DNA of 13,916 nucleotides from a virus. Taxonomy: Duplodnaviria > Heunggongvirae > Uroviricota > Caudoviricetes. Positions 6,001-9,000 of this stretch are shown here, piece after piece. Made by a program: the position numbers. Positions within the stretch are counted from its first letter, which is position 1; the number at the start of each line of letters is the position of its first letter. The stretch is from positions 1 through 13,916 of the IMG/VR virus record IMGVR_UViG_2529292908_000015; one strand, written 5' to 3'.

Positions 6001-9000
6001 CTTGTCGAAAAAGCCAGCAAGCTGAAAGACAGGTATTCACCGCCACCAGCGCGTTTAACGTACTGGTCCGATTTCAGGCATAAAAAACCCGCCTGACGGC
6101 GGATTTAAGCTATGTGGCGAAGTAACCACTCTTAACATGGTATTTATTTTTTTACGATCGTAAAGCATTCTGGAAAAATTTTTAAGACTTACATCATGCT
6201 TTCATAACTTGAGCGCCGTATATAGCCACTGAACGGGAGCTGGTAAATAAGATTCCCCTCAGACACGAACAGCCATCTAAGTATGGAATTGCAAGACCAA
6301 TGAAACTTGATGTTTCTTAAGCAATCTTCAAACAACAAACAGCCTCGTTACAGTTGTCAAGCTATCTTGACGCCATTAGAAACGATGATGAAAATAGACA
6401 CTCCTACACACAGAGGATATATCATGGAAAACTTTGCAAATAAGTTAAAATCTCACGCAGAGCATGTTGCAAACATGGGGTGCTTCTGTAATACAGAGGA
6501 AACAACCAAACAGGCATTAATCATGCCTTTTCTAGATATTTTAGGCTTTACTCCATACGACCCACGAAAAGTGAAGGCAGAGTATAGCGCAGACTTCCCA
6601 GGGGTAAAGATTAACGAACGAGTTGATTACGCTTTATTTTGTCATGATGTTCCCGTGATGTTTATTGAAGCAAAATCATTTTCAGAAAAAATTGACAATC
6701 ATTGCCCACAGCTTTCTAGATATTTCAACTCTACCCCAGAAGTCACCATTTCTGCTATAACAAATGGAATTGAATGGCGTTTTTTTACGGATCTAAAACA
6801 AAAAACATTATGGATTCGTCTCCTTTCTTAAAATTAAGAATGGACTCACTTAACGATTCAGATATTTCACAGTTATTCCGCTTCAGATATGACAAATTTA
6901 AGCCAGAGGCATTAAGGACGCTTGCAGAGGAAAGCGTCTATCTAAACGCATTCACAAAAACCATAAGCTCAAGTCTTAGAGAGGTTGATCCTGAATTTGT
7001 CAGATATGTTGCCAGTCGTTCAAATATCGAGCGTCAACTAAACCAGCGATTCCTTGAATCTGTCACGCCACTGGTCAAACAAGCTGTAAAACGAGCAGTA
7101 AGTGCCATGGTGGTTTCTGGCCTTTCAACACAACCACCTACAGAATCTGCAGAGGATGTGGAAAAGTCTTCTGTAGATACCGATATCGTCAATGAAGATA
7201 ACCCCAATATAATAACCACAAAGAAAGAATTAGAACTTTTCGAAAGAATAAAGCAAATCATTCAAACAGAAGATAATATTGAATACAAAGATACCGAATC
7301 ATACTTTGGAATTCTTTTAGATGGAAAAAGTAATAGATGGATTTTAAGATTTTACGACAAAAAATCATCCTTTATCCTGCTACCGATATCGTTCAACGAA
7401 ATTCAATTAAACGAAATAAAAAGGGCTAGACTGGAAACTGATGGTCGAAAAATCCACATAACAAATCCAGAAGACATACTGCGTATATCTGGATTAATTC
7501 TAGATGCGTTTGAGTATGTAAAAAACGATGACAATTTCAGGAGAGGGACAAAAACAACTCTCTCAGAAAACATCGAATAAATTAGACTATAAACAACACC
7601 CAACTTACATGTCCGGTGTTCCAATCCCGACGCAAATATTTCTAATGTGTGGGAATATAGACCCGGACAATGTATCTAGTCAAGCACCTACATAATTCGT
7701 TCTACATATCTGTCCATCTCCAGCCGGATATCAAGCATCATCAAAATACCATCAATCACCCCTTCGGCTTTCTGAAGACGTTTACCAATGCAGGTGTCAG
7801 AGCATCTATGCTTACGCGCCAGACTCATAAAAGTCATTCCAATGACATAATAATCCACCAATAAATCATGCAAATCACTGTTGTTTTTTTTCAAGCGGGC
7901 CATGCATCCACAAACGATCATCGCGTCATCGTCGCAACATTGCGGACGAGACTTAACTTTTGAAGAGATTAGTCCTTTAAATCCAGCAGCAATCGGTGAC
8001 CAAGTCACATCCTCATGATTGTTTGCAACCCATGCTCCCCAGCGTTCGAGAACCATCTGAATATCACGCATCAACTTTCTCCACAAAATCAGGACAGCAC
8101 ACCAATCGCCAGCGCGCGATCGATAAAACGAAATATCAGCTCCAGTTGGGAACCATACTTCTCTTCAAATGCCACGGTATCCGCATGCAGTCCGTCATGG
8201 TGTTTTCTGCACAAAGGCAACACAAAAAGGTCATGCGCTTTTGTACCCATTCCACCCTGACCATGACCAATCAGGTGATGAGGATCGTCGGCTGGCTTAC
8301 CACAACATGCACACGGCTGCGTCTTAACCCAGCGCGTGTACTTTTCATTAACCCAGCGACGACGTTTTGGGCGTAACATAAAAGACTCCGGCGACTCCGG
8401 ATCCACTTTCAGCGCCAGCACCTTTTTCGCCTTATCCTGGATGATGCTGGTGGCAGTAACCGAAGGCACAAGGTCACTTTCCCGGGTGACAGACGGCACA
8501 ACAGGCTTCGGTAATCTCAGTGCCTTACGGGCTGCACTTTCCGGTAAGGCATCCGCCAGGTCATTACGAATCAGCCACCAGCACAGTTCCGGCATTGTCA
8601 CAACGTGACTGTCATCAAAACCAAGATCACGGCGCACAACAGACAACACCCAGCGGGCACAGTTATCCGTTGCCATTGCTTCCAGCCGTTCCGTGAACTG
8701 GTCACGGAGAAGATTGTCACAGTGCCAGCACAGACGGATTGCACCCGGCGCGTGTCGCATTGTGGTCATGTTCTCGCTGTGCCATCCGGAATGAGGCCAC
8801 TGACAGCCCTTTTCACGAAGTAACCAGCTTTCAAGACATTCCACCCCACCAGTACAACGAATAACTGCCTCATTGCGGAACACGGCCCGAACGGCAGGAT
8901 CATCCGCCAGCGGTTGTGATGCTGCCGGAACGGCACCGCTGGCGAAAGATGAATAACGTTCCGGCTCAGGCTCCAGCAGGACACGCCCCTGCATAAACAG

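What the first reader, a model, noticed from the sequence alone, without database searches (positions are those of the whole stretch)
6424..7580. Cargo encodes a standalone PD-(D/E)xK nuclease with HsdR N-terminal-like domain and no partner methyltransferase, helicase or specificity subunit
The N-terminal ~125 residues carry the catalytic signature (VDYALF, then IEAK, then TNGIEWRFF) of type I restriction HsdR N-terminal / Mrr-like nuclease domains. The downstream ~265 residues match nothing I recognise, apart from a degenerate echo of the last strand (GKSNRWILRFY). A catalytically plausible nuclease fused to an unknown domain, alone in a prophage cargo slot, fits a single-gene abortive-infection or defence effector. 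I cannot assign it to a named system from sequence alone.
Basis: partly seen in the sequence, partly recalled or inferred. Interest (0 to 1): 0.8.

Follow-up and report, generated by a model that had tools for sequence, protein, structure and literature searches.

The report
Prophage-borne standalone HsdR-type nuclease, frameshifted here
The region encodes a widespread but untested prophage "cargo" DNA-cutting enzyme that probably protects lysogens from other phages, though in this window one missing A, most likely a sequencing error, splits the gene in two.

Summary
The quoted motifs are present and the N-terminal domain is a real HsdR-type PD-(D/E)xK nuclease (Pfam HSDR_N and HSDR_N_2, both above cutoff). 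Its D68/E82-x-K84/Q96xxxY100 active site is invariant in 83 divergent relatives.

However, 6424-7580 is not one ORF in this window. An A6 run at 6800-6805 shifts the frame. Three E. coli genomes carry the intact A7 allele (385 aa, WP_032188582.1). All five single-base homopolymer differences between the window and three references are contractions in the window, so an assembly error is the likeliest cause.

The "unknown" C-terminal 260 residues are conserved across about 630 clusters at 50% identity. They form a helical region, an acidic linker and a confidently modelled α/β domain (pLDDT 93). That domain resembles YdhG/YjbR/T4 MotA-CTD "double-wing" folds and is not a second nuclease core.

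The full protein matches phrog_4225 ("endonuclease"). It hits no PADLOC model, and I found no experimental paper on it.

In temperate phages of four phyla the gene sits directly downstream of the lysogeny repressor. Other copies follow antiterminator Q or lie in tail modules. It is always a single gene with no dedicated methylase, helicase or specificity partner.

Best reading: a lysogen-expressed, methylase-independent restriction-type nuclease, possibly modification-dependent. It is an uncharacterised family of a known kind, of moderate interest.

The parts
6424..6831 (+). 5' ORF fragment. Residues 1-127 form the HsdR-type PD-(D/E)xK nuclease domain. Eight out-of-frame residues (TLWIRLLS) and a premature stop follow.
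   Evidence: Start ATG 6424 equals the PGAP start of the intact allele (L001 9326). A GAGG Shine-Dalgarno lies 7 nt upstream (read directly).
6625..6723 (+). Active-site codons: D68 (6625-6627), E82 (6667-6669), K84 (6673-6675), Q96 (6709-6711), Y100 (6721-6723). Together these make the D...ExK...QxxxY RecB/HsdR-type motif set.
   Evidence: Invariant in alignment A2 of 83 divergent members. They align with the same motifs of V. vulnificus HsdR 3h1t.
6800..6805 (+). Frameshift site: an A6 run where intact alleles have A7 (codons CAA AAA AAC = Q-K-N).
6804..7127 (+). Conserved helical middle region (residues 128-235), read in the other frame. Function unknown; possibly a connector or oligomerisation region.
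   Evidence: AF2 pLDDT is low here. There is no Pfam model.
7128..7214 (+). Variable, acidic, probably disordered linker (residues about 236-264).
   Evidence: Variable columns in alignment A1; pLDDT 28-45.
7215..7580 (+). C-terminal α/β domain (residues about 265-375) plus tail and stop codon. The fold resembles YdhG/DUF1801, YjbR/DUF419 and the T4 MotA C-terminal 'double-wing' domain. It is the putative DNA-recognition module.
6138..7925 (.). Variable cargo cassette. It holds the nuclease gene, the PR'-like region and the 3' part of Q, and has low GC.
   Evidence: Breakpoints against related prophage L004, which carries a different 205-aa gene here. Composition.
6367..6395 (+). Weak sigma-70-like promoter candidate (TTGACG-17-GAAAAT), 28 nt upstream of the ATG.
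   Evidence: The number of such sites in the region is not above the shuffle expectation, so this is only a candidate.
7654..7683 (-). PR'-like late promoter candidate (TTGACT-18-TATATT) immediately downstream of Q. It would transcribe antisense through the nuclease gene.
   Evidence: The position relative to Q (7688-8086, minus strand, Phage_antitermQ E=1e-53) supports this; the function is inferred.
6080..6104 (-). Intrinsic-terminator-like hairpin (stem CCGCC/GGCGG extended by flanking pairs, then T6) just outside the cassette, on the late-transcript strand.
   Evidence: RNAfold gives dG -16.3 kcal/mol. Sequence read.

Best explanation
The locus is one gene of a large family (phrog_4225), interrupted here by a single-base loss. 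The family is a single-polypeptide endonuclease of about 385 aa carried as cargo by temperate phages.

Shown:
- An N-terminal HsdR/RecB-type PD-(D/E)xK nuclease domain with an invariant D/ExK/QxxxY active site.
- A conserved helical middle region, an acidic linker and a well-folded C-terminal α/β domain of the YdhG/YjbR/MotA-CTD type.
- No helicase motor, and no methyltransferase or specificity gene travelling with it.
- Recurrent placement in lysogen-expressed prophage slots, most often directly after the CI-type repressor.

Inferred: the protein is made in the lysogen. Its C-terminal domain binds DNA and its N-terminal domain cuts it, destroying superinfecting phage DNA. The helical region probably lets two nuclease domains act together. 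Because no protective methylase exists, and host and prophage DNA must be spared, the most likely discrimination is by a feature of foreign DNA, that is modification-dependent (Type IV-like) restriction.

In this window the gene reads as two ORFs because an A7 run is A6. That is most likely a homopolymer sequencing or assembly error (about 0.7) and otherwise a recent inactivating mutation in a decaying prophage.

Sub-probabilities: anti-phage/anti-MGE defence nuclease of some kind about 0.6; specifically modification-dependent about 0.3.
For: Nuclease domain: Pfam HSDR_N and HSDR_N_2 above cutoff, and all 83 divergent members hit both. E25, D68, E82, K84, Q96, Y100 and G115 are invariant. The residue-level alignment to HsdR 3h1t shows D, ExK, QxxxY and TNG. 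Foldseek top hits are the nuclease domains of DrdV and EcoR124I HsdR.

Architecture conserved: the C-terminal 258 aa find 630 clusters, almost all starting at about residue 125 of 350-400 aa proteins. The match to phrog_4225 is full length, E=1e-146.

Standalone: no partner genes in L001-L022. A 4.5-kb prophage remnant in Citrobacter koseri keeps only the repressor, the nuclease and gene fragments.

Lysogeny-slot placement: repressor followed by nuclease on the same strand in Citrobacter, Providencia, Klebsiella phage KpF5, S. pneumoniae phage IPP25, Corynebacterium phage Juicebox, Enterococcus EG-TP1 and Fusobacterium FNU_1P. It follows Mnt/Arc in Yersinia. Census of 77 proteobacterial loci: 19 have an HTH_3 protein (18 with Peptidase_S24) immediately upstream, and 3 have antiterminator Q.

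Frameshift as artefact: all five 1-nt homopolymer differences against three references are contractions in the window, three of them non-coding and one splitting DnaB. 80 of 80 species-level loci are single-frame.
Against: No experiment on any member was found in the held literature, and no defence-system model matches. The defence role therefore rests on context and architecture alone.

Nothing here tests modification dependence.

The middle region is poorly modelled, so oligomerisation is a guess.

The prophage in this window is itself a deletion remnant (see the noticed items), so real decay, including a real frameshift, cannot be excluded.

The promoter prediction for the gene is not above chance.
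Confidence: 0.55

Rival explanations
1. Abortive-infection effector. The nuclease is held inactive in the lysogen, perhaps with the C-terminal domain acting as a sensor of a phage protein or small molecule. On infection it degrades DNA indiscriminately and kills the cell before phage release.
For: It is a single-gene prophage cargo in the slot used by Abi-type systems such as RexAB and BstA (context; BstA paper listed). Conserved acidic and hydroxyl residues in the C-terminal domain, together with a best fold match to non-DNA-binding YdhG-like proteins, would fit a sensor rather than a DNA reader. TA modules (HicAB, RES/Xre) are neighbours in some loci.
Against: No trigger, antitoxin or regulatory partner is conserved next to it. 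The fold family also includes the DNA-binding MotA CTD. The N-terminal nuclease plus separate C-terminal accessory-domain arrangement parallels single-chain restriction enzymes (general knowledge of PvuRts1I/AbaSI). Nothing here distinguishes the two modes.
Confidence: 0.2
2. The copy in this window is a true pseudogene. The A7-to-A6 slip is a real mutation in a decaying, deletion-bearing cryptic prophage, so no functional nuclease is made in this strain.
For: The prophage has lost its lysis, head and tail genes, with a junction at about 4878-4883. The DnaB-family helicase is also frameshifted at 10447. Slippage in homopolymers is also the commonest natural frameshift.
Against: Five of five single-base homopolymer differences are contractions, none are expansions, and three lie in non-coding DNA. 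Substitutions against the nearest relative are very few (0 in the 1.6-kb cassette). This one-directional pattern is typical of long-read homopolymer under-calling. All 80 species-level loci are intact.
Confidence: 0.28
3. The enzyme serves the phage's own life cycle rather than defence. It could be a recombination, repair or host-DNA-degrading nuclease, or a factor linked to repressor function or prophage induction.
For: It is tightly coupled to the repressor gene across phyla. RecB-type QxxxY nucleases also act in recombination (general knowledge).
Against: The gene is absent from most closely related prophages (3 of 5,426 E. coli genomes carry this allele; L004 has another gene in the slot). 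It occupies several unrelated slots (after cI, after Q, in tail modules), and it persists in a minimal remnant without other phage functions. These are hallmarks of an accessory moron, not a core function.
Confidence: 0.08
4. It is a fragment or orphan R subunit of a Type I restriction-modification system, as the PGAP product name 'type I restriction endonuclease' suggests.
For: Pfam HSDR_N hits. Weak NCBIfam hit to a Type I endonuclease model (17 bits against a 729 cutoff).
Against: There is no SF2 helicase/translocase domain in 385 aa. No hsdM or hsdS occurs nearby in any inspected locus. The full-length architecture is conserved as such in about 630 clusters, so it is not a fragment.
Confidence: 0.02

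Closest known systems
N-terminal endonuclease domain of Type I restriction R subunits (HsdR; e.g. V. vulnificus 3h1t, EcoR124I 2w00) and of Type IIL enzymes such as DrdV (7lo5)
   Same: Same Pfam families (HSDR_N, HSDR_N_2). Same D...ExK...QxxxY...TNG motif set in residue-level alignment. Best structural matches.
   Different: No helicase/translocase motor, no methyltransferase or TRD domains, and no HsdM/HsdS partners. It carries instead a family-specific helical region and a C-terminal α/β domain.
Single-chain modification-dependent (Type IV-like) restriction nucleases such as PvuRts1I/AbaSI, Mrr and MspJI, and the recently reported MdgA/MdgB (PMC12366544)
   Same: One polypeptide that pairs a nuclease domain with a separate accessory (reader) domain, with no cognate methylase. 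MdgA and MdgB give single-gene anti-phage defence that depends on a catalytic Glu.
   Different: The reader domain here is not SRA, winged-helix or DUF4268 (no Pfam hit at E<=10 in 53 members). Modification dependence is untested. Homology to MdgA could not be tested because no sequence is held.
Lysogen-expressed exclusion/defence genes next to prophage repressors (lambda rexAB, BstA in Salmonella BTP1-like prophages, PMC8585504)
   Same: Same genomic logic: an accessory gene directly downstream of, and co-oriented with, the lysogeny repressor, variable between related phages.
   Different: Unrelated proteins and mechanisms. RexAB is a membrane-depolarising Abi system and BstA has a KilA-N domain. 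In this window the gene sits in the Q/PR' slot, not the cI slot.
T4 MotA C-terminal 'double-wing' DNA-binding domain, YjbR/DUF419 and YdhG/DUF1801 proteins
   Different: Sequence identity is only 7-12%, and there is no profile-level relationship. The function of most of these proteins is unknown or unrelated to DNA.

Membership tests
Pfam HSDR_N / HSDR_N_2 (PD-(D/E)xK nuclease domain of HsdR type) | Profile match above the gathering threshold | tested here: met
   PF04313 50.3 bits (cutoff 25.1) and PF13588 33.8 bits (cutoff 25). All 83 relatives match both.
Pfam HSDR_N / HSDR_N_2 (PD-(D/E)xK nuclease domain of HsdR type) | Catalytic D, E-x-K and QxxxY residues present | tested here: met
   D68, E82, K84, Q96 and Y100 are invariant and align to the same motifs in 3h1t.
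Type I restriction-modification R subunit (HsdR) | SF2 helicase/translocase motor domains following the nuclease domain | tested here: not met
   The protein is 385 aa. No helicase family appears in Pfam for it or for 83 relatives.
Type I restriction-modification R subunit (HsdR) | Adjacent hsdM and hsdS genes | tested here: not met
   None in the window or in loci L001-L022. None among the upstream neighbours of 66 loci.
Type IV (modification-dependent) restriction enzymes | Nuclease without a cognate protective methyltransferase | tested here: met
   No conserved MTase partner. The nearby truncated N6_N4_Mtase is independent of the gene.
Type IV (modification-dependent) restriction enzymes | Cleavage requires modified DNA | not testable with these tools
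   Needs biochemistry or phage assays with modified and unmodified phage pairs.
Type IV (modification-dependent) restriction enzymes | A recognised modified-base reader domain (SRA, YTH/ASCH-like, winged helix, DUF4268, etc.) | tested here: inconclusive
   No such Pfam domain. The C-terminal domain has a MotA-CTD/YjbR/YdhG-like fold, which is compatible with DNA binding but does not prove it.
MdgA/MdgB modification defence genes (Forsberg et al. 2025) | DUF4268 accessory domain | tested here: not met
   No DUF4268 hit in 83 full-length members or 53 C-terminal domains at E<=10. Direct sequence comparison was impossible.
Named anti-phage systems in PADLOC-DB 2.0 | Match to any system protein model | tested here: not met
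   0 families at E<=1.
PHROG 4225 ('endonuclease') | Full-length profile match | tested here: met
   E=1.2e-146; residues 1-369 match profile positions 1-357 of 357.

The most novel reading that the evidence does not exclude
The family is an unrecognised, cross-phylum class of repressor-coupled prophage immunity nuclease. Its C-terminal 'double-wing'-like domain would be a new kind of reader that recognises modified or otherwise foreign DNA. That would make it a new Type IV-like restriction family, co-expressed with the lysogeny repressor in phages of Proteobacteria, Firmicutes, Actinobacteria and Fusobacteria. A bolder version is that its activity is functionally wired to the repressor and the SOS state.
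Probability: 0.3. Interest if true: 0.6.

Novelty: new variant of a known kind. Interest (0 to 1): 0.45.

Why it matters
If the intact protein is an active defence nuclease, it adds a widespread single-gene system that current defence finders miss. It has about 630 clusters at 50% identity, is found in 181 species in one genome survey, and occurs in phages of at least four phyla. It would also assign a function to phrog_4225, and it would correct a misleading product name ("type I restriction endonuclease") that propagates through RefSeq.

The C-terminal domain would be a candidate new DNA-recognition module with possible enzyme-tool value.

The conserved repressor-nuclease arrangement offers a simple rule for finding lysogen-expressed defences.

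For this particular window the practical message is more modest. The gene is broken by what looks like a homopolymer error, so annotation of this assembly should be treated with care.

Tried and rejected
- PADLOC scan of the repaired protein: no hit.
- NCBIfam: only a sub-threshold Type I model.
- Megablast of the locus against the phage collection: nothing. The protein-level search did find 19 phages.
- Pfam on 83 full-length and 53 C-terminal sequences, to name the middle and C-terminal regions: no family.
- PDB sequence-profile search with the C-terminal domain: only chance-level NEAT-domain and polymerase hits.
- Foldseek of the full-length model against PDB: informative only for the nuclease domain.
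- The AFDB library was unavailable.
- Literature: GiPD474 (ATPase, PMC12724215), HEC-06/TgvAB (GmrSD lineage, PMC11411939) and DefensePredictor (PMC13092281) were checked and are not this family. Accession searches found nothing. The MdgA sequence is not held, so homology could not be tested.
- Phase variation at the A tract: rejected. A7 is simply the Q-K-N codons and is absent from K-E-K-N alleles, and all 80 surveyed loci are in frame.
- Programmed frameshift or a genuinely split two-gene form in this lineage: rejected for the same reason.
- The adjacent DNA methylase as a partner: rejected.
- The search for related loci with the divergent alignment A2 failed for lack of a conserved stretch. 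A1 was used instead, so the survey is biased towards Proteobacteria.
- My first ORF filter wrongly flagged three loci as disrupted. tblastn showed they are intact.
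Full report
OBSERVATION

The window's six-frame ORF list shows that 6424-7580 is covered by two overlapping ORFs in different frames: 6307/6424..6831 and 6774..7580.

Pfam places HSDR_N (E=3.4e-13) and HSDR_N_2 (E=3.9e-8), both above their gathering cutoffs, on residues about 25-128. It finds nothing in the second ORF.

The two frames join at an A6 run, 6800-6805. Three complete E. coli genomes out of 5,426 carry the same 1.6-kb locus at over 99.6% identity, with an intact 1,158-nt gene. 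This gene is WP_032188582.1, 385 aa, and PGAP names it "type I restriction endonuclease". Across the 1,601 compared bases the window differs from that allele only by two missing A's, each in an A-run: A5 against A6 at 6174, and A6 against A7 at 6800.

IS THE FRAMESHIFT REAL?

Over the 7.3 kb shared with L001, every single-base indel is a base missing from the window in a homopolymer run of 6 or more: 6174, 6800, 9115 and 10447. The last one splits the DnaB-family helicase. Two further references, L004 and L005, confirm 9115 and 10447 and add 841. That makes five contractions, no expansions, and three of the five outside coding sequence.

The A7 run is simply the codons Q-K-N and is absent from alleles that encode K-E-K-N, so it is not a conserved contingency tract. 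In a survey of one genome per species, all 80 retrieved loci are single-frame.

I therefore consider a homopolymer under-call in the assembly the most likely cause (about 0.7). The alternative is a recent real slip in what is clearly a decaying prophage.

THE PROTEIN FAMILY

The repaired protein has 1,465 database relatives in the word-indexed search. The closest are 380-390 aa proteins of Enterobacterales, named variously "type I restriction endonuclease", "predicted type IV restriction endonuclease" and "prophage Lp2 protein 6".

An exhaustive HMMER search with only the C-terminal 258 residues, as encoded in the window, found 630 clusters at 50% identity. Almost all begin at about residue 125 of a 350-400 aa protein, so the whole architecture is conserved.

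In an alignment of 83 members at 25-48% identity, E25, D68, E82, K84, Q96, Y100 and G115 are invariant. T265, T266, E269, D290, Y294 and R309 are nearly so.

The only sequence-level PDB match is a genuine HsdR (V. vulnificus, 3h1t). Its alignment lines up D, E-x-K, QxxxY and TNG. From general knowledge, QxxxY is the RecB-family motif described for HsdR.

The full protein matches phrog_4225 ("endonuclease") end to end, E=1e-146. No PADLOC model matches. NCBIfam gives only a far sub-threshold Type I hit.

STRUCTURE

A full-length AlphaFold model is confident for the nuclease domain and for residues about 255-375, but poor for the helical middle and the acidic linker. Its best Foldseek hits in the PDB are the nuclease domains of DrdV and EcoR124I HsdR.

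A separate model of the C-terminal 130 residues, built from the window's own sequence with 52 divergent homologues, is very confident: pLDDT 93.1, pTM 0.83, topology α-β4-α-β2-α.

No Pfam family covers this domain or the helical region, even at E<=10. A PDB sequence-profile search gives only chance hits.

GENOMIC CONTEXT

In the window the gene lies in a 1.8-kb low-GC cassette, 6138-7925. This cassette differs between otherwise 96-99% identical prophages; L004 carries an unrelated 205-aa gene there.

The cassette sits just downstream of antiterminator Q (7688-8086, minus strand). The nuclease gene is convergent with Q and antisense to a PR'-like promoter candidate at 7683-7654. A strong terminator-like hairpin on the late-transcript strand lies at 6080-6104.

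A DNA methylase gene (N6_N4_Mtase) lies 0.8 kb away. It is truncated, it occurs in prophages without the nuclease, and it is absent next to the intact allele. It is therefore not a partner.

Elsewhere the gene is always a single cargo gene, in these slots:
- Directly (9-30 bp) downstream of a CI/LexA-type repressor on the same strand: Citrobacter, Providencia, Klebsiella phage KpF5 and Fusobacterium phage FNU_1P.
- After a repressor/ImmA-protease pair in Gram-positive phages: S. pneumoniae IPP25 and Enterococcus EG-TP1. In Corynebacterium phage Juicebox the nuclease sits between the repressor and the metalloprotease.
- After Mnt/Arc in a Yersinia prophage.
- Inside a baseplate module, in the 78%-identical E. 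coli homologue.
- Next to HicAB in Porphyromonas phages.

A census of the immediate upstream gene in 77 proteobacterial loci found HTH_3 proteins in 19 (18 with Peptidase_S24) and antiterminator Q in 3. Dit-like tail proteins, RES/Xre TA genes and unrelated chromosomal genes made up smaller numbers.

A 4.5-kb prophage remnant in Citrobacter koseri retains essentially only the repressor and this gene. That argues the protein is tolerated without any methylase and is worth keeping.

MECHANISM

Shown:
- An intact, strongly constrained HsdR/RecB-type active site.
- A separate, conserved, well-folded accessory domain.
- No motor, methylase or specificity partner.
- Accessory-gene behaviour: rare, patchy and present in multiple slots.
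- Preferential placement in operons that are transcribed in the lysogen.

Inferred: the protein is produced in lysogens and cleaves incoming foreign DNA. The C-terminal domain provides substrate recognition and the helical region possibly provides dimerisation.

Host and prophage DNA must be spared without a methylase. The simplest discrimination is therefore dependence on a phage-specific DNA feature, that is Type IV-like restriction. This is consistent with one source's name for the family and with analogous single-gene nucleases (MdgA/MdgB, PD-T4-3) shown to act this way (PMC12366544).

An abortive-infection mode, a triggered and indiscriminate nuclease, is the main rival. It cannot be excluded computationally.

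A phage housekeeping role is unlikely given the patchy distribution.

The "Type I R subunit" label is wrong in the sense that the defining motor and partner subunits are absent.

COMPARISON AND NOVELTY

The nuclease domain is a member of HSDR_N. The protein is not an HsdR, is not in PADLOC, and lacks the DUF4268 domain reported for MdgA/MdgB.

The PD-(D/E)xK survey of Steczkiewicz et al. [quoted passage not shown] Equating this family with COG4748 is my inference from the JGI product name and was not tested. A Campylobacter study noted a similar-sized "HsdR N-terminal domain" protein present only in a phage-resistant strain and called its role unclear (PMC8713573). I found no functional study.

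I therefore class the family as a new variant of a known kind: a single-chain, methylase-less, prophage-borne restriction-type nuclease. It is catalogued as a sequence family but functionally uncharacterised.

Interest is moderate. The defence prediction is unsurprising to a specialist. However, the family is large, is missed by defence finders, has a distinctive accessory domain, and shows a striking cross-phylum repressor linkage that makes it directly testable. The specific copy in this window is broken, probably artefactually.

Noticed in passing
window 4826-4883 (junction), 4026-5611: The prophage is a deletion remnant. The N6_N4_Mtase gene (261-aa ORF here, 349 aa in L004) is truncated and abuts the C-terminal about 280 codons of tail-tip protein J. 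Similarity to the methylase-bearing prophage starts at 4878 and similarity to the J-bearing prophage ends at 4883. The tRNA, lysis, head and most tail genes are therefore missing.
   Followed up: partly
window 10441-10782 and 9383-10375 (minus strand); site 10447: The DnaB-family replicative helicase (466 aa in L001 and L004) is split into 113-aa and 330-aa ORFs by a T6-to-T5 contraction. This is the same kind of homopolymer loss as in the nuclease gene.
   Followed up: yes
window 841, 6174, 9115: Three further single-base homopolymer contractions relative to close relatives, all outside coding sequence. Together with 6800 and 10447 they suggest systematic homopolymer under-calling in this assembly.
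   Followed up: yes
proteins P0122, P0156, P0172, P0184, P0189, P0191, P0195, P0201, P0204, P0205, P0222, P0234, P0249, P0263 (P0124 and P0129 begin 1-4 residues upstream of it): About 16 of the 150 best cluster representatives are 226-271 aa proteins that start exactly, or within a few residues, at the conserved 'MD..PF' (M130 of the E. coli protein). This is the domain boundary where the window's gene is broken. They could be calls from truncated contigs, recurrent frameshifts in the Lys/Asn-rich junction, or genuinely split or internally initiated forms.
   Followed up: partly
window 12059 and 12096-12127 (within ORF 11689-12675, minus strand): The replication-initiator-like gene differs from L001 by in-frame 6-bp and 12-bp indels. 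The 12-bp one lies in a 12-bp tandem repeat (TCTCTGTAGTAA x2.7, encoding a TEITTEITTE stretch). This is reminiscent of iteron-type origin repeats that lie inside lambdoid O genes.
   Followed up: no
window 7654-7683 (minus strand) and 6080-6104 (minus strand): A PR'-like promoter candidate right after Q would drive late transcription antisense through the nuclease gene. A strong terminator-like hairpin (dG -16.3, T6) lies just beyond the cassette. Together they suggest the cargo gene is silenced by transcriptional interference on induction.
   Followed up: partly
window 1735-3300 (minus strand): Tail-fibre gene with a long collagen-like Gly-X-Y repeat region (Pfam Collagen, three stretches) and a C-terminal Peptidase_S74 intramolecular chaperone domain. 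GC is locally high, up to 64%.
   Followed up: no
window 3359-3958 (minus strand): Full-length Ail/Lom outer-membrane protein gene (E=1e-127). Lom was reported to give homotypic phage defence in the same paper that described MdgA/MdgB (PMC12366544).
   Followed up: no
L006-L008 (Citrobacter koseri and relatives), locus positions about 6300-10500: A prophage remnant of about 4.5 kb between purB and phoPQ keeps a terminase fragment, a CI-type repressor, the nuclease homologue and a RecT fragment, and it recurs in many genomes. It looks like a domesticated repressor-nuclease pair.
   Followed up: partly
plasmid collection: 21 of the 50 plasmid records that encode a relative are from Borrelia or Borreliella, whose plasmids (from general knowledge) include prophage-like replicons. 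Rhizobium and Curtobacterium plasmids also carry it.
   Followed up: no
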